Below are positions 8,500 through 58,502 of a DNA stretch of 64,000 nucleotides, in pieces (positions within the stretch are counted from its first letter, which is position 1; the number at the start of each line of letters is the position of its first letter). A program made the translations under genes and the position numbers. Source of the stretch: a virus; the UHGV virus genome UHGV-0010228. One strand, given 5' to 3'. The notes below the pieces were generated by a model. It was not told the DNA's origin, made no database searches, and saw only the letters and a program-made list of their open reading frames with translations.

Positions 8500-9990
8500 A
8501 TGAGTACAAAAAATTATAATCCAATTACCGATTCATTGTTAACTGGAGCAAGAATCACAAAGATCCCTTTAGATCTTGATTGCTGGAATGATTTTCAAAC
8601 TGGTAAGGGAATCAGATTAACTTCAGTTGAAAGTTTTGATAAAAAGAATGAAAAGATTGAAAATGGTCTTCAGTCAGAATTCTTTGGTACAGATTTCGCT
8701 GACGATGAAGCATTTAAAGAAAGATTTAGATGCAAATGTGGTAAATATATAGGATCATCATATCGAGGAATGATATGTGAAAAATGTCAGTCTGAAGTTG
8801 AATATGTTGATATTGATCTTGAAAAGTTTGGATGGATCGTGATGGATCATTTTGTTGTAATAGCTCCTGTATATTATGCTAAGCTTATTGATGCATTAGG
8901 CAAAGTTGATGGTGAACCTGTAATCAATCATATTCTTACAGTAAAATATGATGATACTGATAATGTTGAATATACTGATAAAGAATTGAAGATGTTAAAA
9001 AATCACCCTTACATTAAAAAAGGAATGATTTGGTTTCATGATCATTATAAAGAAGTACTTGAGTATTATATGCGTCAGAAATCAGATAAAAAGACGGCTT
9101 TATTTGAAGAATTAATCAATGAAGTAGATTGCGTATTTACTCATTGTATTCCAGTATTTTCATCAGTATTAAGAACTGAAATGCCTAATGGAGAAAAAGG
9201 ATCTAAATCTTATAAATTAAAGATCAATACTATATATAAATCAATCATTAAACTTTCTAATGCAATAAATAAAACTAATGTTACAGATATGGACGATCAT
9301 GTAATTAATTCTGTAAATATAAAATTAGCTGCAGTGCAGAAAGAGATTGGCGTATTATTTGAAGAAATAGTAAAGACTATGACTTCAAAGACTGGAATAA
9401 TTAATGGTAAAGTATTGGGCGGACGATATAATTTCTCTAGTAGACAGATAATAGTTCCAGCATCAGGTAGAATAAGATCAGATGAAATAGAAATGGGATA
9501 TTTACCATTTCTGGAATTATATAGATACGAAATCATTAACTATTATGCAAAGATCAATAATTGTACTATACAAGAAGCTAGTTATGTATGGAAAAAAGCA
9601 ACCAATCATTTTGATCCAACTATATTTAAAATAATGGAATACATGGTTTCATCTTCAAAGTATAATAAATTTATGTGGGTTATATTAAACAGAAATCCTA
9701 GCATTAATTATGGATCATTTATTTCAGTACGAGTTGCAAGGGTTAAACCTGGATTAAATGATAAAACATTAGGAGTATCTCCACAGGTTATTATACCTAT
9801 GAACGCAGACTTTGATGGTGATGTGTTAAATGTTTATAGAATAGTCGGTGCAGATATGGCTAAAGATATAAGTAAGAATCTTAGGCCTAGTACAAACTTA
9901 TTTGTATCAAGAATGACAGGTAAAGCTAATACTGAAACTCTTCCTAATAAAGAAGAGATAACCTCATTCTGGGCATTTAATAATATCTAA
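8500..9990 (+). CDS. multisubunit RNA polymerase beta-prime subunit, N-terminal fragment (phage-encoded split RNAP)
   Basis: NADFDGD catalytic Mg-binding motif (IIPMNADFDGDVLNVYRI). N-terminal Cys cluster CKCG...CEKC (beta-prime zinc-binding element). RQIIVPASG resembles beta-prime region C. AGGAGG RBS. Confidence 0.85.
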   Translation: MSTKNYNPITDSLLTGARITKIPLDLDCWNDFQTGKGIRLTSVESFDKKNEKIENGLQSEFFGTDFADDEAFKERFRCKCGKYIGSSYRGMICEKCQSEVEYVDIDLEKFGWIVMDHFVVIAPVYYAKLIDALGKVDGEPVINHILTVKYDDTDNVEYTDKELKMLKNHPYIKKGMIWFHDHYKEVLEYYMRQKSDKKTALFEELINEVDCVFTHCIPVFSSVLRTEMPNGEKGSKSYKLKINTIYKSIIKLSNAINKTNVTDMDDHVINSVNIKLAAVQKEIGVLFEEIVKTMTSKTGIINGKVLGGRYNFSSRQIIVPASGRIRSDEIEMGYLPFLELYRYEIINYYAKINNCTIQEASYVWKKATNHFDPTIFKIMEYMVSSSKYNKFMWVILNRNPSINYGSFISVRVARVKPGLNDKTLGVSPQVIIPMNADFDGDVLNVYRIVGADMAKDISKNLRPSTNLFVSRMTGKANTETLPNKEEITSFWAFNNI

Positions 9991-15217: not shown

Positions 15218-15223
15218 TATACT

Positions 15224-18092: not shown

Positions 18093-20516
18093 TTATTTTT
18101 TAATAGTAGATAATTTATCTTTTATACCATTCTTCGTTAAATCTTTAAACATTGAAATGTCATTTTCAGTAAGATCAAGTTTCTTTAATATTTCCTTTAC
18201 AGAATCAGTTTCTTTAATCATATCCCAGCAATAATCTGATTTTTCTCCAGGAGATGATTCTATCATAGTAAATGATTCCATTGCAGAAATATATTCATCA
18301 AATAATTGATTATAATACTGAAGATTCTCATATTTATCGTATATAGTATAACCTCTAATTTGTAATGGCATTGCTATATTAGAATATACTTTATTTTCAA
18401 TATCAGAATCCTTTGCAGTTATGAATTCAATACGGAGACCTATTGCTTTCATATATGCATTTAAAGTATCGGCAGATGAATTTCTATATGCATCTTTAAG
18501 ATTTAACTTCTTTATCTCCAATGGATCACCTTTAGACGCAAGAATCTTTCCAAATTCTTTTCTTCCTATAGGCGAAGTTCTGCCGTACACACCATATGTA
18601 GCTATTATTCTACCCGATATGGCTGGTAATAAACCATGATTCTCAGTTAATCTAACAGGAGTTTTTGCATATGAACTCCTGTTAGTTTTCTTTGCAGAAT
18701 CTTTAGCTGGCTGATTAGTTCTGTTTAAGCTACCGGTTGATCTAGCAGAAAAGTTCTTACTAGAATTCTGTTTTAGAATCATCATATATTCATAACCAAC
18801 TACAGCTTTACGCATAACTTTACGATTTTTTGTGCCAAATAAATTTATATATAACTGTACTGGTTCTATCCATGGAAATTCATCATATAAGGCAGTTATA
18901 TCTTCATATCGTAATGGGGTATGAATCATTCTTACTAAATAAAATCCATCATCTTCAATACTCTTAATAAATTTCTCTTTAGCACCAGGATTTAACATTC
19001 TAAGTTTATAGCCACTAGTTGTTTCTACAGTTTGATCATAGCTATTATATAAATTATGATAGAATGTTGCATGTTCCATATTTACCATTGATAAGAATTT
19101 AAAGATTAAATCTTCTTTTTCTTTCATATCAGTCATTACTTGCAGACGATGTTGAATTCTTTCTGCTATGAAATTCAATTCAACTTCCATCAACTGTGCA
19201 GGATTTAGCCTACGTACACTTCCTGATTGTGATAATAAAATATCAACATTTATTCGTTCTCCAGTATCGGGGTCATAGTAAAATGGCATTCTTTCATCAT
19301 CGATGACTGTGGCTGTAATATTAGGATCTAATCCTATTGCGGGTTCATCCTCATTAAATGATGCGATAACACCTTTATTTCCATAACGTCCAGTGATTTT
19401 TGAACCATGCTCAAGAGGTACTGCAGATTTAACTTTAAATTTAACTATAATGTGTTTGAATGCTTTGTCTTTATTTCTCCACTTATACTCATCATTATTA
19501 TAATTTAAATATTTATCACGATATCTGAGTATATTCATAGTGTATTTAGATTTTGAGTTCTTAATCTTATTACACCATTTGAGTACTTCATATGCATACT
19601 TACAACCAGCTTCATAATACTTCTTAAGTTGTTTATGAAATAAATTATCTGGAAATTCTTCATCACCATTATAGAATACATCTATATCATATACTATAGA
19701 GTTTTTAGATACAAAATATTCCTTATCAGTATCATATGGATGCTTTAAATTATCTGACTGAAAATCATAAATGATATGAGAATTATTAATCCTTCTACTT
19801 GCACAGATTTCAGAATTTTTAACTTTCTCACCTATATCTGGAAATACTTTATAATCATCATTATCTCCATATAGATTTAATAAGATATCATTTGTGTTTA
19901 TAGAAACTTCTACATTATCAACTTCAGTTGATAATACTTTATTAGCCCACGATCTTCTTATAGCAATTGAATCTTCTAATGTATCTGTTGATATCGAATA
20001 TAATACTCTGGCATTCTTACCAAATCTATAATTCATATTATCATCATATGACGTTGATTTATATAAGATATCATCTCTTATAAAATCTCCAACTTTTAAT
20101 GAATCCATACATTCAGTATTATACTCATAACCAAATTTCTCAGTTAAATTTTCTGCTATAGGTCTTTCGATCATATCATACGTTTTAGTTTCTGTATTAT
20201 ATAATACCAGCATATATATTCCTTTATTTTCAAATTTAGGAATTATATCTTTAACTTCCCACTCGCCAGAAAGTTCTTTATATGATTTATTGTATTTACC
20301 TATAGCATTTTCAAACCCAGATGCTAATCTAGGCACATCAGGATTTAATAAAGTGAGGCACTGTTTAATATGCGCAGTAAACATGTAGGCACGGGAAGAG
20401 TCTATATCTCTCCCCCCTGCCAGTAATGAAGGACCGAACATTTTATACATATTATCCCCACTATATTTTTCATCCATTTCCTCAAGTTTCTGTTTTAAAT
20501 GTGTGTCTATTGGCAT
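18093..20516 (-). CDS. multisubunit RNA polymerase beta subunit, C-terminal fragment (phage-encoded split RNAP)
   Basis: TGRYGNKGVIASF matches the beta motif GRHGNKGVISK. The following DILLSQSGSVRRLNPAQLMEVELN parallels [26 protein letters not shown] RBS. Confidence 0.85.
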   Translation of the reverse strand: MPIDTHLKQKLEEMDEKYSGDNMYKMFGPSLLAGGRDIDSSRAYMFTAHIKQCLTLLNPDVPRLASGFENAIGKYNKSYKELSGEWEVKDIIPKFENKGIYMLVLYNTETKTYDMIERPIAENLTEKFGYEYNTECMDSLKVGDFIRDDILYKSTSYDDNMNYRFGKNARVLYSISTDTLEDSIAIRRSWANKVLSTEVDNVEVSINTNDILLNLYGDNDDYKVFPDIGEKVKNSEICASRRINNSHIIYDFQSDNLKHPYDTDKEYFVSKNSIVYDIDVFYNGDEEFPDNLFHKQLKKYYEAGCKYAYEVLKWCNKIKNSKSKYTMNILRYRDKYLNYNNDEYKWRNKDKAFKHIIVKFKVKSAVPLEHGSKITGRYGNKGVIASFNEDEPAIGLDPNITATVIDDERMPFYYDPDTGERINVDILLSQSGSVRRLNPAQLMEVELNFIAERIQHRLQVMTDMKEKEDLIFKFLSMVNMEHATFYHNLYNSYDQTVETTSGYKLRMLNPGAKEKFIKSIEDDGFYLVRMIHTPLRYEDITALYDEFPWIEPVQLYINLFGTKNRKVMRKAVVGYEYMMILKQNSSKNFSARSTGSLNRTNQPAKDSAKKTNRSSYAKTPVRLTENHGLLPAISGRIIATYGVYGRTSPIGRKEFGKILASKGDPLEIKKLNLKDAYRNSSADTLNAYMKAIGLRIEFITAKDSDIENKVYSNIAMPLQIRGYTIYDKYENLQYYNQLFDEYISAMESFTMIESSPGEKSDYCWDMIKETDSVKEILKKLDLTENDISMFKDLTKNGIKDKLSTIKK

Positions 20517-27496: not shown

Positions 27497-28237
27497 TTAT
27501 TTTACTTTATCATTACCTCTAGGACCATTAATTTCTCCAAGATCAGTAATGAGATTTGTAGAAATACCTTGCATTGCAAAATATACATCTAATGTATTAA
27601 GAGCGACCTTATTATATGGATCATTATCTAAATCCTGAAGGCTTACATAACCATCTTTAGATATACTCTTATACATTTCAGCTTTAGCCTTAGTATCATC
27701 TGCTCTAGGTCCCATAAATTCTTTTAATGCATTATCAGCACCTAATGCTATAAGTGAATAAGTTTCAGTATCAGTATTTCTAGCATTCTTATCATGTCCA
27801 GTTACCTGACCAGTTAATGAACTTCTAGATTCAATTTCAATAGAACCTGCAGATTTCTTTAATAATGTCTGAGGCATTCGTTTCTCATGAATATATCCAA
27901 CTGGAACTGGGGTTGGAGTAACTGTCACTACATTAGGATCTTCACTATTATATGGTAATGCAACTCGTTCATATAATGGAACTTTCATAAATTTAGCACA
28001 GTTTTCTAAATCCTTCATTGTAAATACTCTTTCAAATTCTATTATCTCTAAATAGAATTGGGCATTATCATCATTAAAGAATTCCCTTATATGTCTATCA
28101 AATTCTTGATCAGTCATTTTATCATATTTCTCATGATATATCTTCGAATTATCACCAGTTGGATCTAATAGGTCCATAACCGAGGTTAAATAATTCATAA
28201 ATTCTTTACGCTTTTGTGCGATTGACTTCACTACCAT
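27497..28237 (-). CDS. hypothetical protein
   Basis: Start moved to the ATG (MVVKSIAQ...) preceded by GGAGGTG. Confidence 0.65.
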   Translation of the reverse strand: MVVKSIAQKRKEFMNYLTSVMDLLDPTGDNSKIYHEKYDKMTDQEFDRHIREFFNDDNAQFYLEIIEFERVFTMKDLENCAKFMKVPLYERVALPYNSEDPNVVTVTPTPVPVGYIHEKRMPQTLLKKSAGSIEIESRSSLTGQVTGHDKNARNTDTETYSLIALGADNALKEFMGPRADDTKAKAEMYKSISKDGYVSLQDLDNDPYNKVALNTLDVYFAMQGISTNLITDLGEINGPRGNDKVK

Positions 28238-28697
28238 AATTTTTAATAACACCTCCTATATCAATATCACATGATATTGTGGCATATTTAGATATCTCAC
28301 AAAATAACTCATATGATTTTTCAAATACCGAATCATTTCTATACAAAAAACAAGCAATGATATCATAGAACCAATGATCGTTCTCATCATCAATTGTTTT
28401 AAGATATGGATATTTTAATATATTGTGCTCTGTATCATATTTTGGTACATTTCTTTTATATTCATCATGATATGTCAATTCTAAGCAATATTGATATATA
28501 GAATTAGTTGTTTCATATAATTGCTCGGCAATTATTCTAGCGTTTGGATAATTAGCAACTCTGGATAAAATAGTTTTTCTTATATAGAATACATTAGCAA
28601 GATATTTATCAATCCATGCATATTCCGATAAACCACTTCGTACAAGATTTGCTTCAAATTCTTGTATAAAAATTCCAATAAATGCCATATTTATCAC
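28206..28697 (-). CDS. hypothetical protein
   Basis: 163-aa ORF; 3' end overlaps the next gene start. Confidence 0.6.
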   Translation of the reverse strand: MINMAFIGIFIQEFEANLVRSGLSEYAWIDKYLANVFYIRKTILSRVANYPNARIIAEQLYETTNSIYQYCLELTYHDEYKRNVPKYDTEHNILKYPYLKTIDDENDHWFYDIIACFLYRNDSVFEKSYELFCEISKYATISCDIDIGGVIKNYGSEVNRTKA

Positions 28698-37818: not shown

Positions 37819-37834
37819 TATTGATTTTATCTTT

Positions 37835-38533: not shown

Positions 38534-38574
38534 AATTAATGCTATATATCCATTATGGATATATAGCATTAATT
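38534..38574. repeat. perfect 19-bp inverted repeat (3-nt spacer) in non-coding region
   Basis: aattaatgctatatatcca-tta-tggatatatagcattaatt. Confidence 0.5.
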
Positions 38575-40763: not shown

Positions 40764-40790
40764 TTTATCCTCCAAAATTTAAGAAAAAGT

Positions 40791-40822
40791 TTGATTCTGT
40801 GTAAAATTTTACACAGAATCAA
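40791..40822 (-). terminator. palindromic hairpin overlapping the helicase gene stop
   Basis: ttgattctgtgtaaaa / ttttacacagaatcaa perfect palindrome. Confidence 0.5.
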
Positions 40823-42290: not shown

Positions 42291-42359
42291 CTAAATAATA
42301 TATCTTCTAATATAGATCAATCAAAAAACACAAACTTAAATGAGGGGAGGCGAATTTAA

Positions 42360-44555: not shown

Positions 44556-45080
44556 ATGAATTATTCGGTTATAAAAAAACATGATGTAGCAAATGGTCCT
44601 GGAGTTAGAGTTTCACTTTATGTGTCTGGATGTTCGCATCATTGTAAAAATTGTTTTAATCCTGAGACTTGGGATAAAAATTATGGTTCAATATTTACTT
44701 TAAAAGAAAGAATTGAAATAATTGATGCATTAAGACCTGATTATATTGAAGGTCTAACAATATTAGGCGGAGATCCAATTGAACCTTATAATATTTCTGA
44801 AGTTATTAAACTTATAAAGAGTGTAAAGGTTGTGTATCCAGATAAATCTATTTGGTTATATACTGGATATAAATTTGAAGATCTATTATCTGAGAAATTA
44901 ATCCCCGATCGTAGTATTAGAGATGATATTACAAGATATATTGATGTTATTGTAGATGGAGAGTTCGAAGAAGAAAATAAAGTTATTGATTTAAGATTTA
45001 GGGGATCTACAAATCAAAGAATCATCGATGTTAAAAAGAGTGTTAAAGAAGATTCCATTATATTATGGACAGATAAATAA
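44556..45080 (+). CDS. nrdG: anaerobic ribonucleotide reductase activating protein (radical SAM)
   Basis: GPGVRVSLYVSGCSHHCKNCFNPETW matches the NrdG G-x-G-x-R...GC-x3-C-x2-C-x-N signature. GAGGAGG RBS. Confidence 0.85.
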   Translation: MNYSVIKKHDVANGPGVRVSLYVSGCSHHCKNCFNPETWDKNYGSIFTLKERIEIIDALRPDYIEGLTILGGDPIEPYNISEVIKLIKSVKVVYPDKSIWLYTGYKFEDLLSEKLIPDRSIRDDITRYIDVIVDGEFEEENKVIDLRFRGSTNQRIIDVKKSVKEDSIILWTDK

Positions 45081-45104
45081 GGATAATGCATATGCATTAT
45101 CCTT
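45079..45104. terminator. bidirectional intrinsic terminator
   Basis: aaggataatgca-tatg-cattatcctt palindrome between convergent genes. Confidence 0.7.
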
Positions 45105-45111
45105 ATTAATT

Positions 45112-45654
45112 TTACATAATCCGCTTATATACAAAATTGTGATATAAGTGACCATTAGCATCAACTTTCTGAGGATCATCTGGATTTTCACACTCCCATC
45201 TTGGATCTTTATTAGTAATAAGATTCATAAATAGATTTACAAATGTATCACAAGCACCATTTACATTTGTAAATTTTGTTAAATAAACTTTTTCAGCATC
45301 ATTTGCGAATGCATCATATAATGTAGCCCCTCCAATAATCCAAACATCACCATATTCAAGATATGTGTCGATAAGATCTCTAAGAGCAGATTCATTGTTA
45401 ACAAATATTGACATAGTTTTCTCATCTTCAATTTGATTACAAGGCCTATATTTAGTAGATATAACAACATTCGTTCTATTCTTTAATGGTTTAGAACCTA
45501 TAGATTCCCAGGTTTTTCTACCCATAACTACTACTGATCCTGTAGTCATCATTTTAAAATATTTTAAATCTTCAGGTGATTTACAAAAGAGCTCACCTTT
45601 ATTACCAATACCGCCTATAACATTAGACGCTGCTATCATTTTAATTGTTCCCAT
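45112..45654 (-). CDS. frd: dihydrofolate reductase
   Basis: MIAASNVIGGIGNKGELFCKSPEDLKYFKMMTTG...VVMGRKTWESIG matches the DHFR N-terminal and GRKT motifs. Confidence 0.85.
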   Translation of the reverse strand: MGTIKMIAASNVIGGIGNKGELFCKSPEDLKYFKMMTTGSVVVMGRKTWESIGSKPLKNRTNVVISTKYRPCNQIEDEKTMSIFVNNESALRDLIDTYLEYGDVWIIGGATLYDAFANDAEKVYLTKFTNVNGACDTFVNLFMNLITNKDPRWECENPDDPQKVDANGHLYHNFVYKRIM

Positions 45655-45665
45655 TTTATTCTCCT

Positions 45666-46496
45666 TTATTCTGCCACTGGAATATTTTTTATCTGAGGGT
45701 TTGCCTCATAATTTGGAATATGAATATCATCTATAGTAAAATCATAAAAATCCTTTATATCAGGATTAATTAGTACTTGTGGCGCTGGATAAGTTTTTCT
45801 AGATATCATTTCTTTTACGATTGGTATGTGTCTATCATAAATATGTGCATCCGCAATACAATGAATTAGTGTACCAGCTTCATAACCAGTAACCTGTGCT
45901 AATAATTTTAATAATAACGAATACTGAAATACATTAAATGCATTTGCAACTAATACATCTTGTGATCTTTGATTTAATATAGCATTTAATTTATTTCCAG
46001 TAACATTAAATGTCATACTATAAGCGCATGGTGCTAAATTCATTTCATGTAGATCTTCAAAATTATATATATTAGTTATCATACGTCTACTCTGTGGAGT
46101 ATTCTTTAATTGCCATATGATATTATCAACCTGATCCATTTCTCCCTGTGGGAATAAATATTTCTTACCTAATTGATACCCATAGGCTTTACCTATAGTA
46201 CCATCTTCGCCTTCCCACTGATCCCATATATGATTTCCTAATTCCGAAACCTTATTGGATTTCTTCTGCCATATCCATAATAATTCTTGTGTTGCAGTTT
46301 TCCATGCGGTTGGTCTTAGTGTGCATAATGGCATTTCTTTACCAACATCATAGACATTTACTGCACCAAATATTTTTATAGTATGGGCTGGTGTTCCATC
46401 TTCCCATTTAGCTCTAACAACTGACCCTTCAGTTGAATATCCGTAATCAATAATATGATTACATAACGTAATTAAGCTATCATCATATTTACTCAT
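45666..46496 (-). CDS. thymidylate synthase (ThyA) family enzyme (thymidylate synthase or dUMP/dCMP hydroxymethylase)
   Basis: Start at the internal ATG with AGGAGG. Catalytic-Cys region NLAPCAYSMTFNV resembles LPPCHxxxQFYV. IFGAVNVYD resembles the ThyA N-terminal block. Confidence 0.75.
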   Translation of the reverse strand: MSKYDDSLITLCNHIIDYGYSTEGSVVRAKWEDGTPAHTIKIFGAVNVYDVGKEMPLCTLRPTAWKTATQELLWIWQKKSNKVSELGNHIWDQWEGEDGTIGKAYGYQLGKKYLFPQGEMDQVDNIIWQLKNTPQSRRMITNIYNFEDLHEMNLAPCAYSMTFNVTGNKLNAILNQRSQDVLVANAFNVFQYSLLLKLLAQVTGYEAGTLIHCIADAHIYDRHIPIVKEMISRKTYPAPQVLINPDIKDFYDFTIDDIHIPNYEANPQIKNIPVAE

Positions 46497-46601
46497 TTTA
46501 TTAACCTCCTTAAAATAAGTATCCATATAACTTTATAGATAAGTTAGATAAGGAATACTAAAAAACAAAATCGTAATTTTATAGAAAGGGTGGGTAAAGA
46601 C

Positions 46602-47810
46602 ATGGATACTATCCCTGAAAATTTAAAAAAAGAACTATTAGCACTAGATGCTAAAACTATAACAGTTTCTCAGATATCATCTTTATTTGGTTATACAATG
46701 GATAAAGAATCTGGAGATCCTTTTAAAGTTAAACCTCCGAAATTTGATACTACATGGAAAATGCATTTAAATGCCGGAGAATATATCAACAAAGAAGCTG
46801 TAGATACTCATGTTGGAATATTTTTATTTAATAAACTTCTTATTGAGGGAAATGTTGAAGATGCAATTCCAAATGGTTACTATAATGAAGTAATGACCGC
46901 AAAGAAAATGAAAAAGTTACTTTCAATGATTGCAAATGCCTTATTAAATAATATTGTAACAATAAAGCCTCAAGTATATCATTTTCTAAGAAATTATGAA
47001 TTTTGGTCTCTTAAATTAGTATCTATATTCTCTGCATCATATACGCCTAAGTTATTAGATATGAACACTAAAATTGAGGCTGAAAAGAAGAGAGTTCTGA
47101 ATGATCTCGATTCAATGACTATGGTTGATATGGTAAATGCTGAAGATAAGTTAGTTGATATGGCTAACCAGGTAGTTGGAAACGATCCAGGTAAGGCAAT
47201 ATTTAATTCTGGAGCAAGAGGTTCATTTGAAAACGACTATAAGAACATGATGTTATCTGTAGGACCTACAATGAATCCAACTACAGGGGAATACGATTTT
47301 ATCAAATCTTCTTATTTAGGTGGTATTAGCAAAGAGGATTTAGCTGCCGCAGGAAATATAATTATTAATGCAGAATATCCTAAAGCAATTGGTACTGCTA
47401 AAGGTGGATACTTGGTAAAGCAGTTCTATGCAGTATTTCAGAATGTAGTCTTCGGAGAACCAGGCTCTGATTGTAAAACTAAAGAAGGACTTATAGTAAA
47501 GATTGATAATGATAATGTAAATGAGTATATCGATCAATATGCATTTGGTAAAAGTGGGCCAGTTTTAATTACTGAAGAAAATGCAAAGAATTGGATTGGT
47601 AGAACTATAAAAATTAGATCACCGATGTTTTGTACTGCAGAGCATATTTGTAATAAGTGTGCTGGAGAGAGATTTTATAAATTAGGAATTAGAAATGCAG
47701 GATTAACTGCAATAAATATTGGTTCTAAAATCTTAAATGCCGGAATGAAAAACCGTCACTCTCTTAAAATTAAACTCGATACGGTTGATATTAATAAGGT
47801 GCTAAAATAG
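46602..47810 (+). CDS. multisubunit RNA polymerase beta-prime subunit, C-terminal (trigger-loop region) fragment, copy 1
   Basis: IRSPMFCTAEHICNKCAGERF...GLTAINIGSKILNAGMKNRH parallels the beta-prime VRSVVSC...GVCAHCYGRDL...[23 protein letters not shown] region. Confidence 0.8.
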   Translation: MDTIPENLKKELLALDAKTITVSQISSLFGYTMDKESGDPFKVKPPKFDTTWKMHLNAGEYINKEAVDTHVGIFLFNKLLIEGNVEDAIPNGYYNEVMTAKKMKKLLSMIANALLNNIVTIKPQVYHFLRNYEFWSLKLVSIFSASYTPKLLDMNTKIEAEKKRVLNDLDSMTMVDMVNAEDKLVDMANQVVGNDPGKAIFNSGARGSFENDYKNMMLSVGPTMNPTTGEYDFIKSSYLGGISKEDLAAAGNIIINAEYPKAIGTAKGGYLVKQFYAVFQNVVFGEPGSDCKTKEGLIVKIDNDNVNEYIDQYAFGKSGPVLITEENAKNWIGRTIKIRSPMFCTAEHICNKCAGERFYKLGIRNAGLTAINIGSKILNAGMKNRHSLKIKLDTVDINKVLK

Positions 47811-47821
47811 GAGGTTTAATT

Positions 47822-48007
47822 ATGATAAAAAATGATTCATTAAAGGATATGATGTTTCAAACATCAGCATTCGCACAACTATGTGAAAGATCACGAAATA
47901 AGCAGAATCGGCCATTATCAAATGGATCTACCAGAGTACAAGAATCAACAGAGGCTATTAATAATTTAATAGGTCATTGCATTAAGTATTCAAAAAAATA
48001 TATTTAA
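47822..48007 (+). CDS. hypothetical small protein (61 aa)
   Basis: Strong TAGGAGG RBS 7 nt upstream; followed by a terminator. Confidence 0.4.
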   Translation: MIKNDSLKDMMFQTSAFAQLCERSRNKQNRPLSNGSTRVQESTEAINNLIGHCIKYSKKYI

Positions 48008-48012
48008 TAAAT

Positions 48013-48040
48013 AGGATATGAACTTTAAAGTTCATATCCT
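48013..48040. terminator. bidirectional intrinsic terminator between the two convergent beta-prime C-fragment genes
   Basis: aggatatgaacttt / aaagttcatatcct perfect palindrome. Confidence 0.7.
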
Positions 48041-48049
48041 ATAATATTT

Positions 48050-50065
48050 TTATACATATTTAGCTAATACAGGGGCATACATTGTATCGAGATGTGATGG
48101 GGCACTCTTCTTATATAATTCAGTAGATAAGATTTGTCTCTTTAAGAATCCGTATGGCATACTAACTAATGCACTTGGATGATACTGTAAAGCAGTATCA
48201 AGTCTTAATATTTGATAATCATTAGGATCTCCATTAGCACTAAAATCTGGAAATTCTAATATATTAGATTTCTTTCTTAAAAGTCCTCTAATGATTAATT
48301 CACCATGAACTAAATCATATTTCTGACCCATACTTATTAATGATTCTGCAAATTTCTGACACATCTCGCTAACAGTTCTTACTCCCATATGCTCGTTGGT
48401 ATTTAAGAGTTTCTTAAATATTTCAATAGGTTCTGTCAGCTCTTTATTCTTAACCTCAACTAAGAATAAAGACATTGTTTCATCAAAATTCTCTAATGAT
48501 ATAGGAGTAGATTTATCACGAAGCTTTTTATATTGATCAATAATCTGATCGTTGAGATATAACTTAGCTTCACTTTCTTCATATATATGATATATCTCAT
48601 TATTAGCTGCATCTTGTATTTTAAATCCATATGTATAATAGAAAATTTTATCGTCTAATTCTTCTTCTATTACATCATCTAATACAATATACAAATCAGC
48701 ATCAAGATCTGAATCTTCTTTAAGACTCATTTCAGATGATTCTAATTCAAATAATTCATCAAATCCTTTACTGAATTTAATCTGATTAGAATGTGTAGTC
48801 TGAGAATGCTTTGTTGATAATACACCTTGCTGTGCTGGCTCTGATTCTTTAAGTGCAGCAATTGCACCTACACTAAACAAACTTGAATTAATATCAAATA
48901 ATTTACCATAGCAGTATTTACAAATGCCATCTTTACCACAGCATGTTGCCGGTGATTTAAACCTAACAATCTTACCAATAAGATCTTTATCTTTCTTATA
49001 ATCAACGCATTTTAAATGACCATGACTATCATAATAGAATCGACCATTTAATAATGATAAGAAATTGTCATCTAATATATGATAATCAACCGTTGCAACA
49101 CTATTACACATCTCACCTGACTGTGATAATATACCTGATGAAGTTGAAACCTGACATAATTTCTTAGCGAATGCACCCGGAATTCCCATTCCCTGCTTAA
49201 CAGCAATTAATGCTTTTCTACCTGACAGTGCATTAATATAGAATAATGATGGCTTATATAATCCGTCTAATAAGAATGATCCATTTATCATTACCGGAAT
49301 TACGTTGCCTGATAAGTCAGCTTTAAGTCCTATCTTAATCATAAACTCTTTTAACTGTGCAGGTTTTATTCCAGCACCAGATGCGTATGAAGATCTAAAA
49401 TCATTATCTTTACCAGGTTCTGCAGGTAAATCATTCTTCATTATATCAATTAATCTTGAAGTACGTCTACTTAACTCATCTTCAATCTCATTAGGCTCAA
49501 GAGTTTCATCAACATCTTTATACATTATATCATGAACTTCAGGTATACGCTTTTCTAAATCATATATGTTATGAATTGACACACCGTTACCAATCAATAA
49601 ACAAAAAGCATGAGCTATAGCAATGATTGAATAATATATATCATCAATCATTGTATTCTTTGATGCAAAGTCATCATCATTTATTGGTAGTAACTTTTCA
49701 TTTATATATTCTAATAAAGTTATTGAACTGAATTTAGTAAAATCAAATATATATGATTCATCTAATAATTCTACTTTATCCATATATATAAATGGTTTCC
49801 ACAATATTAAGTTAGATAGTAAATGACGAAGTTCCATAGTTTTAAATTCTTTATCTTCAGAATGGAATTTATAATGAACTAATCTACTTCTAATTTCCTT
49901 GTACTCAAACCCATATTTGAGTATATCTAATAGATCCTGAAAGATTACATTGTAAGTTTTATTGGATTCCAATATTTCTTCAATAATCAGAAAATGCTCA
50001 TCGTTATAAATTGCATCTAATTCTTCTGGAGTTTTCTTTGGATGCCCATTAAAGTCAATTTTCAT
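48050..50065 (-). CDS. multisubunit RNA polymerase beta-prime subunit, C-terminal (trigger-loop region) fragment, copy 2 (paralog)
   Basis: FKSPATCCGKDGICKYCYGKLF...VGAIAALKESEPAQQGVLSTKHS is collinear with the beta-prime region around CxxCYG and [21 protein letters not shown]. Start placed at the ATG after GGGAGG. Confidence 0.8.
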   Translation of the reverse strand: MKIDFNGHPKKTPEELDAIYNDEHFLIIEEILESNKTYNVIFQDLLDILKYGFEYKEIRSRLVHYKFHSEDKEFKTMELRHLLSNLILWKPFIYMDKVELLDESYIFDFTKFSSITLLEYINEKLLPINDDDFASKNTMIDDIYYSIIAIAHAFCLLIGNGVSIHNIYDLEKRIPEVHDIMYKDVDETLEPNEIEDELSRRTSRLIDIMKNDLPAEPGKDNDFRSSYASGAGIKPAQLKEFMIKIGLKADLSGNVIPVMINGSFLLDGLYKPSLFYINALSGRKALIAVKQGMGIPGAFAKKLCQVSTSSGILSQSGEMCNSVATVDYHILDDNFLSLLNGRFYYDSHGHLKCVDYKKDKDLIGKIVRFKSPATCCGKDGICKYCYGKLFDINSSLFSVGAIAALKESEPAQQGVLSTKHSQTTHSNQIKFSKGFDELFELESSEMSLKEDSDLDADLYIVLDDVIEEELDDKIFYYTYGFKIQDAANNEIYHIYEESEAKLYLNDQIIDQYKKLRDKSTPISLENFDETMSLFLVEVKNKELTEPIEIFKKLLNTNEHMGVRTVSEMCQKFAESLISMGQKYDLVHGELIIRGLLRKKSNILEFPDFSANGDPNDYQILRLDTALQYHPSALVSMPYGFLKRQILSTELYKKSAPSHLDTMYAPVLAKYV

Positions 50066-50337
50066 TTTTCTTTTTCCTCCCAGCAAATAATAACATCATC
50101 ACTTCTATCATCAGTATTATTAGTATACAATACAACATTATATTTACATTTATCTTTTAATGATAAATCCTCTATGGGATATACATTAACACAATCATAA
50201 AAAGCACCATTACCGGGAATATTTGGCTGATTATTATAATATTCCATTTCAACAGTATAAGTTAATTGTGAATACGATAAACTCGTAAACAGTGTAAATA
50301 ATAATAAAGTTTTCATATTATTGTCCTCAATTGTCAT
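50062..50337 (-). CDS. small secreted protein (signal peptide)
   Basis: MKTLLLFTLFTSLSYSQ N-terminus; GAGGA RBS; stop overlaps the next start (ATGA). Confidence 0.55.
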   Translation of the reverse strand: MTIEDNNMKTLLLFTLFTSLSYSQLTYTVEMEYYNNQPNIPGNGAFYDCVNVYPIEDLSLKDKCKYNVVLYTNNTDDRSDDVIICWEEKEK

Positions 50338-50341: not shown

Positions 50342-50377
50342 AAAGCGATATACTATCAATTGATAGTATATCGCTTT
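50342..50377. terminator. intrinsic terminator
   Basis: aaagcgatatactatcaa / ttgatagtatatcgcttt 18-bp palindrome followed by a T-run. Confidence 0.7.
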
Positions 50378-50402
50378 GTTTTTGTTATTTTAAGATTCTA
50401 GG

Positions 50403-51302: not shown

Positions 51303-51326
51303 GTCAATCCTCCTTTCATAAAATAT

Positions 51327-51356
51327 AGGTTAATGTAGTATATACTACATTAACCT
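51327..51356. terminator. intrinsic terminator
   Basis: aggttaatgtagta-ta-tactacattaacct. Confidence 0.7.
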
Positions 51357-51368
51357 AATTGTTAGTTA

Positions 51369-52274
51369 TTATTCATCTTCATCTCTCACATACCATAATA
51401 AAGCTTTCATTAATGTATCAACATTTCTATCTACAACTTCATCCATTTTCTCAGGATCATCACAGAATTCCATATCGATTACATCTATCATATATCCAGC
51501 TTTATCGGCATAATGCAATAATAAAGCAAAATCATCTTCAGCATATCGCATCTCATCAAGCTTTGCATATTCCGGAGAATTTTCTATTGTATATTCCCCA
51601 AATGGAAGATACTTCCACATATTAGATACTATATTCATATACGAATCATTTGATTCATGCAGATCTTTATTCTCTTTAGTATCTAAGGTGTTTTTATCAT
51701 CTGGAAATCTTAAATAGAAATTCATCTGATATCCTGGAATATCTTTTAGCATACTTGGTTCAATAAGAATTTGGCTCCTTAAATATTCTATGAGATACAT
51801 ATAGATATTTTCAAGTTCATCCGGATTCTTTTGCTGCTCTATATAGAAGGAATTTACAATCTTAGCACCCTGATATAAGAAATTAGATAAAAATGATCTA
51901 TCATTAACCATATAGTGTGCAATTTTATAATCAGAAGATTCAACTCTAAGACGTCTATCTAAGACATATAATAATGAAGAAGTTATATAATCAAGTTCTG
52001 TTGGATCAGTATTATTTAATTCCCCATTAAGATATTGCTTAATCATTTTACCCATAGAAGATTCATAGTCAGGATAATGTTGATATATAGCAACATCTTC
52101 AATTCCTTTTTCTAAAATTGCATTTCTTATTTCATCAGGAAGTCTATCTATAATAGTTCTATTAGCAGCATTTAATCTTTCAACTATTCTCTTAGCAATA
52201 GTTGATTTACCAACACCATCTGCACCTTCGATATTAATTACAATATGTAATAATTCTTTTGATTCATTTTCCAT
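51369..52274 (-). CDS. thymidylate (dNMP) kinase-like protein
   Basis: NIEGADGVGKSTIAKRI matches the Tmk P-loop (IEGxxGxGKST). 301 aa with a C-terminal extension. Confidence 0.7.
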   Translation of the reverse strand: MENESKELLHIVINIEGADGVGKSTIAKRIVERLNAANRTIIDRLPDEIRNAILEKGIEDVAIYQHYPDYESSMGKMIKQYLNGELNNTDPTELDYITSSLLYVLDRRLRVESSDYKIAHYMVNDRSFLSNFLYQGAKIVNSFYIEQQKNPDELENIYMYLIEYLRSQILIEPSMLKDIPGYQMNFYLRFPDDKNTLDTKENKDLHESNDSYMNIVSNMWKYLPFGEYTIENSPEYAKLDEMRYAEDDFALLLHYADKAGYMIDVIDMEFCDDPEKMDEVVDRNVDTLMKALLWYVRDEDE

Positions 52275-52279: not shown

Positions 52280-53986
52280 CTATTCCTCTCCGCTCATTGA
52301 AGTTAATATATTTGTATCTTCTTTTTCAACAATCTCAATTTTTTCATATTTAAGATATTCCTTAAAAGGATCGTCTTTATATTTAGATTCGATCCAAGAA
52401 TCAAATGATTTCTTCTTGGTTTTCTTAGTTTCAACTTCAAATAAATACTGATTATGACACGGTTCACGATCTGGAGTAAAGTAGAATCTATCATATAATT
52501 TAGCAAATGGAACTAAACTTCCAGACATACCAACATCTGAATTTGATGATACATTTAAATCTAATATTCCAACCATAGATGGATGAAGATATCTATATTT
52601 AACAGATATTTTCTTATTGTTAGAATCACCAATAGACTGGAAGCCTTTTCCTGAATATGCGATATCCATTAAGAAATTCATATCATTTACAATATCATCA
52701 GTCTTAACTAAGTCATTTAAATTTCTCATACCACTAATAATAATATCGGAAGGGAAATTAAATAACTCCATTAAGGTATCCATTGTATTCATACGTGATT
52801 TACCACGTTTTTCAATGAATTTATTAATGTTTTCATTAATCTTCTTACCTAATGAAGATAATACGATATATTCATTACGTCTAATACGTTTATTGCACAT
52901 ATCAATATTTGAATGAGCTCTTAACTCTTCAAAATTAGTCATTATCCAATACATCAAATAATAGATATTCTGTTTATAATATAATGGTAATCTTAGATTA
53001 TTAATTGTAACTTGATCCAATAATCTTTCAATCATCAATAATGTGGTATAACCTTTTTCTCTGAAAGAAAGAATATTTTTATTTTTTGCAGTACCAACCA
53101 TTCCAATTCTGCAGATCCAATATTCTTTATCTTCAATATTATGAGAGCTTACTGGAAAATCTTTATTTCTAGTACTACAAAGCATAGTTACAAATGCTCT
53201 GACCATGTTATATTTTTCAAACATATCAGATTTTACTTTTACATATAATTCATCAAGCTGGAAAATCTCATATTTATCTAATTCAGATTCTTTATAATCT
53301 GAATCAATGAATACAATACCTTCCATATCAAAGAATTTTAGTGTGTTTGCTAATCCCATTTTAGAGCTATAAATTAATATTGGATTTATAAATCTTGGTT
53401 TACTTTTAGCGCCAGGTTTTCTAGTTTTAGTATTAAGTGCATATGAATAAGAAGGTGTAACGTGTGTAGTACCAGTTACATCTTCTATCATACGATTTTT
53501 ATTCTGATATATAACAATTGGCATCCTAGATTTGATAGTAGTTTTACCTCTTTGAGAATAGGTTGAAGCATCTAGTAACTGCCATATTGCTTTCATTTTC
53601 TTACCATTATTATAATAAAAACCATCAATCTCTATTGGGTATAATATATGCTTCTTAATAATTTTCTTATTAAGATTAGTCTCTACTTTTATTGTAAAGA
53701 TTATCTCTCCATAAAAATTATCATTCATATATTTAAATTTAGGAAATTCAAGATTTGATAGATCTTTCTTCTTATAATTGATATTTATTGTATGCATATT
53801 AATATCAACTTCATCAGGTCTATCAACCACTTCTATATTAAGAATTTCGATATTTTCTATAGCCTCTAATTCTTTCATTGAGGTGATTATGAAGTCTTCT
53901 AATGAATCATCCTGATTACCCACAATAATATCATCATTAAATTCTTCGGTGTATTTATTTGGATATAATCCTACATAGTCTATCAT
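52280..53986 (-). CDS. hypothetical protein; possible RNA polymerase beta-subunit N-terminal/middle fragment
   Basis: Start moved to the ATG after AAGGAGG (MIDYVGLYPN...). RYLHPSMVGILDLNVSSNSDVGMSGSLVPFAKL loosely parallels the beta [29 protein letters not shown]. Functional call is tentative. Confidence 0.5.
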   Translation of the reverse strand: MIDYVGLYPNKYTEEFNDDIIVGNQDDSLEDFIITSMKELEAIENIEILNIEVVDRPDEVDINMHTININYKKKDLSNLEFPKFKYMNDNFYGEIIFTIKVETNLNKKIIKKHILYPIEIDGFYYNNGKKMKAIWQLLDASTYSQRGKTTIKSRMPIVIYQNKNRMIEDVTGTTHVTPSYSYALNTKTRKPGAKSKPRFINPILIYSSKMGLANTLKFFDMEGIVFIDSDYKESELDKYEIFQLDELYVKVKSDMFEKYNMVRAFVTMLCSTRNKDFPVSSHNIEDKEYWICRIGMVGTAKNKNILSFREKGYTTLLMIERLLDQVTINNLRLPLYYKQNIYYLMYWIMTNFEELRAHSNIDMCNKRIRRNEYIVLSSLGKKINENINKFIEKRGKSRMNTMDTLMELFNFPSDIIISGMRNLNDLVKTDDIVNDMNFLMDIAYSGKGFQSIGDSNNKKISVKYRYLHPSMVGILDLNVSSNSDVGMSGSLVPFAKLYDRFYFTPDREPCHNQYLFEVETKKTKKKSFDSWIESKYKDDPFKEYLKYEKIEIVEKEDTNILTSMSGEE

Positions 53987-54024
53987 TTTTGTGTGTACCT
54001 CCTTAAAATAATTATATAATTTTT

Positions 54025-54059
54025 GAGAGAGCCATAGCATAATACACTATGGCTCTCTC
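54025..54059 (-). terminator. intrinsic terminator
   Basis: gagagagccatag-(9 nt)-ctatggctctctc, T-run on the minus strand. Confidence 0.7.
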
Positions 54060-55288: not shown

Positions 55289-55323
55289 TTTATTTCCTCC
55301 TTTATCATGTGAATAATATATGA

Positions 55324-58471: not shown

Positions 58472-58502
58472 AAAAAAGAAAACCATAATGGTTTTCTTTT
58501 TT
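58472..58502 (-). terminator. intrinsic terminator
   Basis: aaaaagaaaacc-ataat-ggttttcttttt. Confidence 0.65.

What the first reader, a model, noticed from the sequence alone, without database searches (positions are those of the whole stretch)
46602..50065. Two paralogous beta-prime C-terminal (trigger-loop region) fragment genes arranged tail-to-tail
Both 46602..47810 (+) and 48050..50065 (-) contain the beta-prime segment RSPxxC...C..C(Y/A)G followed by a trigger-loop-base motif (G..A....SEP / IGS). They are clearly diverged from each other and converge on a shared palindromic terminator at 48013-48040. Two copies of the same RNAP piece is what is expected if the phage encodes two distinct RNAPs (virion-packaged and non-virion), as in phiKZ and AR9. 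The adjacent convergent arrangement of the two paralogs is unusual and suggests an old tandem or inverted duplication.
Basis: partly seen in the sequence, partly recalled or inferred. Interest (0 to 1): 0.7.

Follow-up and report, generated by a model that had tools for sequence, protein, structure and literature searches.

The report
Two phage RNA polymerase beta-prime genes
Two neighbouring genes in a giant gut-phage genome encode matching pieces of the phage's two separate RNA polymerases (one packaged in the virus particle, one made after infection); this two-polymerase design is already known from phages phiKZ and AR9, and the side-by-side placement is a recent local gene-order change, not a trace of the original duplication.

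Summary
ORF1 (46602-47810, +, 402 aa) and ORF2 (48050-50065, -, 671 aa) are intact, diverged paralogs of the same RNAP beta-prime segment: bridge helix, Cys4 zinc site and first trigger-loop helix (hhalign 95.9%, E 6.5e-9). ORF1 is the ortholog of AR9 gp264 and phiKZ gp80, the virion-RNAP "Mid-beta-prime" piece, which by family design stops just after the trigger-loop His. ORF2 is the full-length ortholog of AR9 gp154 and phiKZ gp74, the non-virion RNAP C-beta-prime.

The v|nv split has 100/100 bootstrap support, so it predates the divergence of phiKZ, AR9 and this gut-metagenome phage. The window also carries three more nvRNAP genes and one more vRNAP gene.

Two corrections. A 61-aa ORF lies between ORF1 and the hairpin. 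The hairpin (48011-48042) is one of about 11 similar ones in the window.

The "old tandem/inverted duplication" inference is not supported. Close linkage occurs only in the window's nearest relatives (60-70% identity). It is absent within 10 kb in 16 more distant clade loci, and no cultured phage compared has the genes closer than 4.4 kb (up to ~95 kb). The vRNAP gene sits in a variable insert between nv beta-prime-C and a helicase.

Verdict: an ordinary new member of a known system.

The parts
46602..47810 (+). ORF1, 402 aa: virion-RNAP 'Mid-beta-prime' subunit, ortholog of AR9 gp264 and phiKZ gp80. It runs from about the cyanobacterial-type beta-prime split site to just past the trigger-loop His.
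   Evidence: phrog_2962 E 1e-58. tblastn to AR9 g264: 31% identity, E 9e-57, full length. Family HMM: gp264 356 bits, gp80 90 bits. AF2 model pLDDT 85.7; Foldseek top hits are all RNAP beta-prime, E down to 3.8e-13. The family profile maps to B. subtilis beta-prime 603-944 and E. coli beta-prime 713-822.
47331..47438 (+). ORF1 bridge-helix segment (aa 244-279).
   Evidence: The AF2 model has a long helix at 244-279. The segment aligns to the bridge helix of cyanobacterial beta-prime and to the equivalent ORF2 segment.
47616..47666 (+). ORF1 zinc-site motif R339-S-P-x-x-C344...C350..C353-A-G355. The fourth ligand is C291, at nt 47472-47474.
   Evidence: These columns are invariant in 42 homologs. 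They align to the ORF2 motif.
47700..47759 (+). ORF1 first trigger-loop helix (G367...H386). The protein ends 16 residues later.
   Evidence: G367 is invariant and H386 nearly invariant. The segment aligns to ORF2 G400...H420. The three-piece vRNAP beta-prime is described in PMC7598289 and PMC5105663.
46564..46575 (+). AACAAAATCGTA: match to the AR9-type late (nvRNAP) promoter motif AACA-N6-T[A/G], 27 nt upstream of the ORF1 ATG.
   Evidence: 16 of 68 window matches lie in the 7.5% of sequence that is intergenic, and eight of them sit 22-53 nt upstream of a start codon. The AR9 consensus is from PMC5312081. This is a low-information motif and only suggestive.
47822..48007 (+). 61-aa ORF between ORF1 and the hairpin, with a GGAGG ribosome-binding site 7 nt upstream. 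Function unknown.
   Evidence: called by metagenome gene callers. No PHROG hit. The small ORFs at the same position in L017 (58 aa) and L011 (55 aa) are barely similar in sequence.
48011..48042 (.). Perfect 14-bp/4-nt-loop hairpin with T-rich tails on both strands: a likely bidirectional intrinsic terminator for the two converging transcription units.
   Evidence: dG -18.5/-18.8 kcal/mol, z -6.2/-6.5. Flagged by the terminator scan. It is one of about 11 such intergenic hairpins in the window, including those at the other convergent junctions checked (7306, 15178, 45073). Hairpins of different sequence follow the ORF2 homolog in L017 and L011.
48050..50065 (-). ORF2, 671 aa: non-virion-RNAP C-beta-prime subunit, ortholog of AR9 gp154 and phiKZ gp74. 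It contains the Mid-equivalent segment plus about 240 further C-terminal residues.
   Evidence: phrog_3015 E 2.5e-47. PDB 7S00_D (AR9 nvRNAP) E 3.3e-48, residues 78-660 against 67-628 of 631; phiKZ gp74 (7OGP_D) E 1.5e-8. The family profile maps to E. coli beta-prime 880-943 and B. subtilis beta-prime 724-950.
48905..48958 (-). ORF2 zinc-site motif K370-S-P-x-T-C375...C382..C385-Y-G387. The fourth ligand is C320, at nt 49106-49108.
   Evidence: These columns are invariant in 42 homologs. They align to the AR9 gp154 and phiKZ gp74 motifs.
48806..48868 (-). ORF2 first trigger-loop helix (G400-AIAALKESEP...K419-H420).
   Evidence: G400, K419 and H420 are invariant. The segment aligns to E. coli beta-prime up to about residue 943.
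50062..50316 (-). 84-aa ORF (91 aa if started at 50337) with a signal-peptide-like N-terminus. Its stop overlaps the ORF2 start (ATGA), so the two are probably co-transcribed and translationally coupled.
   Evidence: No Pfam or PHROG hit.
50342..50377 (.). 16-bp perfect hairpin between the amidase gene and the small-ORF/ORF2 unit. An AACA-N6-TA motif (50369-50380, - strand) overlaps its arm.
8500..9990 (+). nvRNAP N-beta-prime (AR9 gp270 homolog), the partner of ORF2.
   Evidence: tblastn to AR9 g270 E 5e-34. phrog_2987. Pfam RNA_pol_Rpb1_2 E 3.5e-8. An exact early-promoter motif lies at 8439-8454.
18093..20516 (-). nvRNAP C-beta (AR9 gp089 homolog).
   Evidence: tblastn E 7e-79. phrog_3295. 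Pfam Rpb2_6.
52280..54040 (-). nvRNAP N-beta (AR9 gp105 homolog). It lies upstream of ORF2 in a gene order conserved across the clade.
   Evidence: tblastn E 1.5e-34. phrog_2943. Synteny in L011-L029.
27497..28252 (-). vRNAP C-beta piece (homolog of the RNAP domain of AR9 gp078), a partner of ORF1.
   Evidence: tblastn to the three exons of AR9 g078. phrog_3233 E 2.7e-39.

Best explanation
The window comes from a jumbo phage of about 250 kb found in human-gut metagenomes. Like AR9 and phiKZ, it encodes two multisubunit RNA polymerases built from split beta and beta-prime pieces.

ORF1 is the middle piece of the virion RNAP beta-prime. It carries the funnel region, bridge helix, Cys4 zinc site and first trigger-loop helix. 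By orthology, it assembles with the other vRNAP pieces, is packaged in the capsid, is injected with the DNA, and transcribes early genes. Those early genes here carry an AR9-like ATATATTAT-N6-G promoter.

ORF2 is the C-terminal beta-prime piece of the non-virion RNAP. It joins the N-beta-prime, N-beta and C-beta pieces also encoded in the window, and the enzyme transcribes late genes.

The two genes are ancient paralogs: the v/nv split predates the common ancestor of phiKZ, AR9 and this phage. They became neighbours only recently. In this sub-lineage the vRNAP gene lies in a variable insert, together with nucleotide-metabolism genes (thyA, DHFR, nrdG). The insert sits in the normally short gap between the nvRNAP C-beta-prime gene and a conserved helicase gene.

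The two converging units end at an ordinary bidirectional terminator-type hairpin.

Shown here: homology, orthology, equivalence of the beta-prime segments, gene order in relatives, and the hairpin. Inferred: virion packaging, temporal class, and terminator function.
For: Identity and orthology:
- PHROG families 2962 and 3015.
- AR9 g264 and g154 by tblastn, with the AR9 annotation 'virion RNAP subunit' and 'non-virion RNAP subunit'.
- PDB hit to 7S00_D, E 3e-48.
- HMM cross-scores.
- NJ tree with the v|nv split in 100/100 bootstraps.

Same beta-prime segment:
- hhalign 95.9%, E 6.5e-9.
- Both family profiles map to one reference chain, 8i23_D: 575-941 for the ORF1 family and 712-949 for the ORF2 family.
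- The AF2 model of ORF1 matches beta-prime chains.

Three-piece vRNAP beta-prime: PMC7598289, PMC5312081, PMC5105663.

Companion subunits in the window.

Adjacency is derived:
- L017 has the same layout. L011 has the genes 2 kb apart.
- L012, L013 and 15 distinct IMG/VR loci (one the same contig as L013) have no ORF1 homolog within 10 kb.
- On one 254-kb contig the genes are 54 kb apart.
- In cultured phages: about 91 kb in AR9/PBS1, 74 kb in BpSp, 24-27 kb in Staphylococcus phages, 44 kb in Listeria LPJP1, 49-52 kb in Fusobacterium phages, 6.4 kb in phiKZ and 4.4 kb in Vibrio phages.
- The core order nv-N-beta, nv-C-beta-prime, helicase is conserved, including phiKZ gp71-75.

Promoters and terminator:
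- Early-promoter motif: 16 exact matches against 2.9 expected, 0 of 100 shuffles reaching that count.
- Late-type motif 27 nt upstream of ORF1.
- Hairpin.
Against: - Single-sequence Pfam scans do not reach threshold for either protein, so the beta-prime assignment rests on family profiles, PHROGs, PDB hits and a predicted fold.
- Virion packaging of ORF1 and the temporal classes are inferred from orthology and from low-information motifs.
- No exact early promoter lies directly upstream of ORF2. The nearest is at 55306-55321, with two hairpins in between, so how an nvRNAP gene is expressed early here is unresolved.
- The remaining vRNAP genes (N-beta-prime, C-beta-prime, N-beta) and a gp226/gp68-like nvRNAP subunit were not found in the window.
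- Loose linkage (4-15 kb) of the two genes in several phiKZ-like phages means some ancestral proximity cannot be formally excluded.
Confidence: 0.88

Rival explanations
1. One reading: the convergent neighbours are a relic of the ancient tandem or inverted duplication that created the two RNAPs, retained in this lineage and lost elsewhere.
For: The genes are 240 bp apart in opposite orientation. In several distant lineages they lie within 4-15 kb of each other: phiKZ 6.4 kb; Vibrio phages 4.4 kb, RP12 12 kb, Simmy50 15 kb. The literature says it is unresolved whether the v and nv enzymes arose by duplication or by two separate acquisitions (PMC7598289).
Against: Close linkage occurs only in the terminal sub-clade (window, L017, L011). 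It is absent in 16 other clade loci at 21-57% identity. It is also absent in all AR9-like, Staphylococcus, Listeria and Fusobacterium phages, where the genes are 24-95 kb apart. The vRNAP gene lies inside a lineage-variable insert that interrupts the otherwise conserved nv-C-beta-prime/helicase junction. In a relative the vRNAP gene sits next to nrdG, 54 kb away. No repeat or sequence trace of a duplication remains; the proteins share 22% identity over 79 aa.
Confidence: 0.06
2. The juxtaposition is functional. Convergent transcription of a late vRNAP gene and an early nvRNAP gene across one hairpin provides antisense or interference control of the switch between the two polymerases, and this favoured fixing the arrangement.
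For: The convergent layout with an intervening hairpin is kept in three relatives even though the hairpin sequence differs. A late-type promoter motif lies upstream of ORF1.
Against: The strong hairpin should block read-through rather than promote it. Identical hairpins sit at the other convergent junctions checked in the window. In L011, 2 kb and three genes separate the pair. Most relatives do without the arrangement. There are no expression data.
Confidence: 0.05
3. One of the two is a decaying or non-functional copy. For example, ORF1 could be a truncated remnant, since it ends inside the trigger loop.
For: ORF1 stops 16 residues after the trigger-loop His and lacks all C-terminal beta-prime regions.
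Against: The same end point is shared by AR9 gp264 (401 aa), phiKZ gp80 and more than 100 metagenomic homologs of about 400 aa with full-length coverage. The zinc ligands, bridge helix and trigger-loop His are conserved. The missing part is known to be a separate virion protein (SPN3US gp244 / AR9 gp125).
Confidence: 0.01

Closest known systems
Bacillus phage AR9 / PBS1: vRNAP gp264 (Mid-beta-prime) and nvRNAP gp154 (C-beta-prime)
   Same: Both are closest cultured orthologs at about 30-31% identity (ORF1 over its full length; ORF2 over 75% by tblastn and near full length by phmmer to the gp154 chain). The lengths match (401 vs 402 aa; 631 vs 671 aa), as do the split points, zinc site and trigger-loop residues. 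The early-promoter consensus is the same, ATATATTAT-N6-G, and there is a similar AACA-N6-TA late-type motif.
   Different: In AR9 the two genes are about 91 kb apart and on the same strand. Several AR9 RNAP genes carry introns or homing endonucleases, whereas the window genes are uninterrupted. AR9 has uracil DNA, according to PMC5312081. This phage encodes ThyA, DHFR and a thymidylate-kinase-like protein, which suggests thymine DNA. It is known only from metagenomes.
Pseudomonas phage phiKZ: gp80 (vRNAP) and gp74 (nvRNAP, PDB 7OGP chain D)
   Same: Same two-polymerase design. ORF1-family HMM against gp80: E 1e-29. ORF2-family HMM against gp74: E 6e-25. The local order nv-N-beta (gp71-73), nv-C-beta-prime (gp74), helicase (gp75) is shared.
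   Different: Much more distant in sequence. gp74 and gp80 are 6.4 kb apart, on the same strand, with the helicase between them.
Salmonella phage SPN3US vRNAP beta-prime pieces (gp42 Mid, gp244 C-terminal piece)
   Same: This explains why ORF1-type proteins end in the trigger loop: the C-terminal conserved region is a separate virion protein of about 240 aa (PMC5105663).
   Different: No gp244/gp125 homolog could be detected in this window. The 61-aa ORF next to ORF1 is too short and shows no similarity.
Cyanobacterial / plastid split beta-prime (RpoC1 | RpoC2)
   Same: The ORF1 family profile aligns from residue about 11 of cyanobacterial RpoC2 (8syi_Z). This fits the shared split site after the DPBB domain noted in PMC7598289.
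   Different: Cellular RpoC2 continues to the C-terminus and carries large insertions. The phage enzymes lack alpha and omega subunits (PMC7598289).

Membership tests
Jumbo-phage virion RNAP Mid-beta-prime subunit (AR9 gp264 / phiKZ gp80 / PHROG 2962) | Sequence orthology to gp264/gp80 rather than to the nvRNAP paralogs | tested here: met
   phrog_2962 E 1e-58. HMM scores 356 and 90 bits against 42 and 25 bits. Nested in the v clade, 100/100 bootstraps.
Jumbo-phage virion RNAP Mid-beta-prime subunit (AR9 gp264 / phiKZ gp80 / PHROG 2962) | Beta-prime fold covering the split site through the bridge helix, Cys4 zinc site and first trigger-loop helix, ending there | tested here: met
   AF2 pLDDT 85.7; Foldseek hits to beta-prime chains with E 1e-13 to 1e-10. 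The profile maps to B. subtilis beta-prime 603-944. Conserved residues are listed.
Jumbo-phage virion RNAP Mid-beta-prime subunit (AR9 gp264 / phiKZ gp80 / PHROG 2962) | The other vRNAP pieces (N-beta-prime, C-beta-prime, N-beta, C-beta) are encoded in the same genome | tested here: inconclusive
   Only C-beta was found (27497-28252). The others are not in this 64-kb window. The rest of the genome was not examined.
Jumbo-phage virion RNAP Mid-beta-prime subunit (AR9 gp264 / phiKZ gp80 / PHROG 2962) | The protein is present in purified virions | not testable with these tools
   Needs virion mass spectrometry. The phage is uncultured.
Jumbo-phage non-virion RNAP C-beta-prime subunit (AR9 gp154 / phiKZ gp74 / PHROG 3015) | Near-full-length homology to a structurally solved nvRNAP C-beta-prime | tested here: met
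   7S00_D E 3.3e-48, residues 78-660 against 67-628 of 631; 7OGP_D E 1.5e-8. The family profile gives E 1.4e-78.
Jumbo-phage non-virion RNAP C-beta-prime subunit (AR9 gp154 / phiKZ gp74 / PHROG 3015) | Partner nvRNAP core subunits are encoded in the same genome | tested here: met
   N-beta-prime at 8500-9990, C-beta at 18093-20516 and N-beta at 52280-54040.
Jumbo-phage non-virion RNAP C-beta-prime subunit (AR9 gp154 / phiKZ gp74 / PHROG 3015) | A fifth, promoter-specificity subunit (AR9 gp226 / phiKZ gp68) | tested here: inconclusive
   No tblastn hit to AR9 g226 in the window. The 469-aa orphan ORF at 33596-35005 has no PDB, Pfam or PHROG match. The subunit may lie outside the window or be too diverged to detect.
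Recent or relic tandem/inverted gene duplication | The neighbours are each other's closest relatives, or adjacency is shared by the whole clade | tested here: not met
   Each gene is closer to its orthologs in AR9 and phiKZ. Adjacency is absent in 16 clade loci, and no cultured phage compared has the genes closer than 4.4 kb.
Bidirectional intrinsic terminator | A stable hairpin followed by a U-rich tract on both strands, placed between convergent genes | tested here: met
   14-bp stem, dG about -18.5 kcal/mol, z about -6. The tails are AATATTTTTA on the + strand and TTTATTAAATAT on the - strand. Termination activity with the phage RNAPs was not tested.

The most novel reading that the evidence does not exclude
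The recently acquired convergent pairing of a presumably late vRNAP gene and the nvRNAP C-beta-prime gene across a single hairpin may act as a timing device. Late transcription that leaks through the hairpin would produce antisense RNA against the nvRNAP gene, or the reverse. Synthesis of one polymerase would then be coupled to shut-off of the other. The 61-aa ORF could be a lineage-specific accessory factor of the vRNAP.
Probability: 0.05. Interest if true: 0.5.

Novelty: new member of a known kind. Interest (0 to 1): 0.22.

Why it matters
The finding adds an uncultured human-gut jumbo-phage clade, most likely infecting Firmicutes, to the phages that carry the phiKZ/AR9-type dual multisubunit RNAP system. 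Within 64 kb it gives clean orthology assignments for six RNAP pieces.

The unusual gene order carries no information about how the two polymerases originated. That question remains open in the literature (PMC7598289).

The more useful by-product concerns promoters. AR9's early consensus and a similar late-type motif appear conserved in a phage whose RNAP subunits are only about 30% identical. The same phage appears to make thymine DNA rather than uracil DNA. This offers a natural comparison for studying template-strand promoter recognition by nvRNAP.

Tried and rejected
- **Pfam on single sequences.** Only a sub-threshold Rpb1_4 hit for ORF1 and nothing for ORF2. Family profiles, PHROGs, PDB searches and a predicted fold replaced it.
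- **Megablast against cultured phages.** No match, so there is no close cultured relative.
- **Direct tblastn of ORF1 against phiKZ gp80.** Nothing at E<1e-4. A family HMM was needed.
- **The missing vRNAP C-beta-prime piece (AR9 gp125 / SPN3US gp244).** phmmer and HMM searches over all six-frame ORFs of the window found nothing significant. The 61-aa ORF was rejected as that piece because of its size and lack of similarity.
- **The orphan 469-aa ORF (33596-35005) as a gp226-like nvRNAP subunit.** No support.
- **Conservation of the small ORF downstream of ORF1 in relatives.** The position is kept but there is essentially no sequence similarity.
- **An early promoter directly upstream of ORF1 or ORF2.** None found. 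With one mismatch allowed, the motif count falls to chance level: 56 observed against 57 expected.
- **Assembly artefact.** Rejected, because the same layout appears in independent samples.

Full report
**What is there**

The region holds two long ORFs facing each other. ORF1 is 46602-47810 (+), 402 aa. ORF2 is 48050-50065 (-), 671 aa.
- ORF1 has a plausible ribosome-binding site.
- The ORF2 ATG overlaps the stop codon of an upstream 84/91-aa ORF in an ATGA overlap.
- Independent metagenome gene callers give the same two proteins. The identical layout occurs in assemblies from different samples, one of them a 100-kb Hadza gut contig. It is therefore not an assembly artefact.
- The window is about 29% GC and has no close cultured relative.

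**The reported motifs are real and conserved**

- ORF1 carries R339-SP-xx-C344...C350..C353-AG355, then G367...H386.
- ORF2 carries K370-SP-xT-C375...C382..C385-YG387, then G400...SEP...H420.
- In alignments of 42 homologs each, these residues and a fourth upstream Cys (C291 in ORF1, C320 in ORF2) are invariant or nearly so.
- Pairwise BLASTP finds only this segment: 22% identity over 79 aa, E 3e-4.
- A profile-profile comparison of the two families aligns 234 colinear columns at 95.9% probability, E 6.5e-9. ORF1 152-395 matches ORF2 171-429.

**Are they beta-prime, and the same part of it?**

Single-sequence Pfam scans fail: Rpb1_4 scores E 0.22 for ORF1, and ORF2 has no hit. More sensitive evidence is unambiguous.
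- ORF2 matches the crystal-structure chain of AR9 nvRNAP gp154 (7S00_D) over nearly its full length, E 3.3e-48. It also matches phiKZ gp74 (7OGP_D), E 1.5e-8.
- The ORF1 family profile hits 77 PDB beta-prime sequences, with E down to 6.6e-16.
- An AlphaFold model of ORF1 (pLDDT 85.7) retrieves only RNAP beta-prime chains, with E 1e-13 to 1e-10. Among them is AR9 gp154 at TM 0.54-0.60.
- On one common reference chain, 8i23_D, the ORF1 family covers residues 575-941 and the ORF2 family covers 712-949.
- On E. coli beta-prime, the ORF1 family covers 713-822 and the ORF2 family covers 880-943. These segments contain the bridge helix, zinc site and first trigger-loop helix.

**Which polymerase does each belong to?**

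- tblastn against AR9 pairs ORF1 with g264, annotated 'virion RNAP subunit': 31% identity, E 9e-57.
- It pairs ORF2 with g154, annotated 'non-virion RNAP subunit, beta-prime C-terminus': 30% identity, E 3e-44.
- The ORF1-family HMM scores AR9 gp264 at 356 bits and phiKZ gp80 at 90 bits. It scores the nv proteins at only 42 and 25 bits.
- The ORF2-family HMM scores gp154 at 268 bits and gp74 at 73 bits, against 31 and 7 bits for the v proteins.
- An NJ tree of the shared region separates v from nv in 100 of 100 bootstraps, with each window gene nested in its own clade.
- The split is therefore older than the common ancestor of phiKZ, AR9 and this phage.

**A refinement from the literature**

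The vRNAP beta-prime comes in three pieces: N, Mid and C. In AR9 these are gp145, gp264 and gp125. The C piece was identified as SPN3US gp244, a 240-aa virion protein (PMC7598289; PMC5312081; PMC5105663).
- ORF1 is thus the Mid piece. Its ending 16 residues after the trigger-loop His is a family property, not a truncation.
- ORF2 contains the Mid-equivalent segment plus the C-terminal regions.
- No gp125/gp244 homolog is detectable in the window.

**Context**

The window also encodes:
- nvRNAP N-beta-prime at 8500-9990;
- nvRNAP C-beta at 18093-20516;
- nvRNAP N-beta at 52280-54040;
- a vRNAP C-beta piece at 27497-28252.

**Is the adjacency a relic of the duplication?**

No.
- *Nearest relatives.* L017 (63% and 60% identity) has the same layout, including a small intervening ORF. 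L011 (69% and 70% identity) has the genes convergent but 2 kb apart, with three small genes between them.
- *More distant clade members.* L012, L013 and 15 distinct IMG/VR loci at 21-57% identity (one of them the same contig as L013, so 16 distinct loci in all) have no ORF1 homolog within 10 kb of the ORF2 homolog. On one 254-kb contig the two genes are 54 kb apart, and the ORF1 homolog sits next to an nrdG homolog.
- *Cultured phages.* Separations are about 91 kb in AR9/PBS1, 74 kb in BpSp, 24-27 kb in Staphylococcus jumbo phages, 44 kb in Listeria LPJP1, 49-52 kb in Fusobacterium phages, 95 kb in phiR1-37, 6.4 kb in phiKZ and 4.4 kb in some Vibrio phages.
- *Conserved backbone.* The shared order is nv-N-beta, (tmk), nv-C-beta-prime, helicase. 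It is also seen as phiKZ gp71-75.
- *The insert.* In the window's sub-lineage a block of about 5.8 kb interrupts the nv-C-beta-prime/helicase junction. It holds the 61-aa ORF, ORF1, thyA, DHFR, nrdG and a 716-aa ORF.

The most parsimonious reading is a recent relocation of the vRNAP gene into a variable spot. Direct adjacency is rare, but it is derived.

**The 'shared terminator'**

- The palindrome spans 48011-48042. It has a 14-bp perfect stem and a 4-nt loop, with dG -18.5/-18.8 kcal/mol and z -6.2/-6.5, and T-rich tails on both sides.
- It lies after the 61-aa ORF (47822-48007, GGAGG site), not directly after ORF1.
- About 11 equally perfect intergenic hairpins occur in the window, including at the other convergent junctions checked: 7306, 15178 and 45073.
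- Hairpins of unrelated sequence follow the ORF2 homolog in L017 and L011.
- It is an ordinary terminator-type element for this genome. Its activity with the phage RNAPs is inferred.

**Expression (inferred)**

- The AR9 early-promoter consensus AAATATATATTAT-N6-G (PMC5312081; AR9 sites) recurs here as ATATATTAT-N6-G. There are 16 exact matches against 2.9 expected, and none of 100 shuffles reached that count. Of the 16, 15 are intergenic and point at the next gene.
- None lies directly upstream of ORF1 or ORF2. The nearest one upstream of ORF2 is at 55306-55321.
- The AR9 late motif AACA-N6-T[A/G] is enriched about 3-fold in intergenic DNA. It occurs 27 nt before the ORF1 ATG and 53 nt before the small ORF that is coupled to ORF2.
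- This fits late expression of a packaged enzyme, but the motif carries little information.

**Verdict**

This is a correctly spotted pair of ancient paralogs, one belonging to each of the two known jumbo-phage RNAPs. The phage is an uncultured gut phage. The gene order is a local curiosity with no bearing on the origin of the two enzymes.

Noticed in passing
window, 16 sites (e.g. 8392-8407 -, 8439-8454 +, 31309-31324 -, 42288-42303 -, 55306-55321 -): The AR9 early (virion-RNAP) promoter core ATATATTAT-N6-G occurs 16 times exactly, against 2.9 expected. Fifteen of the sites are intergenic and point at the downstream gene (primase, nv N-beta-prime, DNA polymerase, SbcC, helicase and others). 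The promoter consensus is therefore conserved between AR9 and a phage whose RNAP subunits are only about 30% identical.
   Followed up: partly
window 8449, 10814, 31351, 39414(-), 42327, 44518, 46564, 50369(-): The AR9-type late motif AACA-N6-T[A/G] is about 3-fold enriched in intergenic DNA (16 of 68 matches in 7.5% of the sequence). It sits 22-53 nt upstream of eight start codons. It is a low-information motif and has not been validated.
   Followed up: partly
window 44556-46526 and 51369-52274: The phage encodes nrdG, DHFR, ThyA and a thymidylate-kinase-like protein, which suggests thymine-containing DNA. Its closest cultured relatives, AR9/PBS1, use uracil DNA, and the AR9 nvRNAP reads template-strand dU in late promoters. 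If the AACA motif really is the late promoter here, recognition would have to work on T.
   Followed up: no
window 47822-48007 (+): A 61-aa ORF with a strong GGAGG site lies immediately after ORF1. Small ORFs occupy the same position in L017 (58 aa) and L011 (55 aa) but share almost no sequence. It is unclear whether this is a real gene.
   Followed up: partly
window 27497-28697 (-): The vRNAP C-beta homolog (251 aa, phrog_3233) is uninterrupted here, whereas its AR9 counterpart g078 has three exons and an N-terminal HD domain. An overlapping upstream ORF (28206-28697) and the next ORF (28739-29407) have no family matches, so no HD domain was detected.
   Followed up: partly
L030 10001-13983; L022/L023 7682-9847; L025 504-2511: In some relatives the nv C-beta-prime homolog is split by about 2 kb (L030). 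The nv N-beta homolog is split by about 330-350 bp (L022, L023, L025). These look like intron, intein or homing-element insertions, as in the AR9 RNAP genes.
   Followed up: no
window 7306-7342, 15178-15220, 26158-26200, 37789-37819, 38534-38574, 40790-40823, 45073-45110, 50342-50377, 51319-51364, 58472-58502: A genome-wide style of long, perfect (14-21 bp) AT-rich hairpins in intergenic regions, including at the convergent gene junctions checked. Each has a unique sequence.
   Followed up: partly
window 33596-35005 (-): A 469-aa ORF with an exact early promoter at 35047-35062 has no Pfam, PHROG, PDB or AR9 match. Its size is similar to AR9 gp226, the nvRNAP promoter-specificity subunit, but there is no evidence of any relationship.
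   Followed up: partly
window 52280-40809 (- strand order); L018 (phiKZ gp71-75): The gene order nv-N-beta, nv-C-beta-prime, SF2 helicase is conserved from this gut clade to phiKZ, despite only about 25% protein identity.
   Followed up: partly
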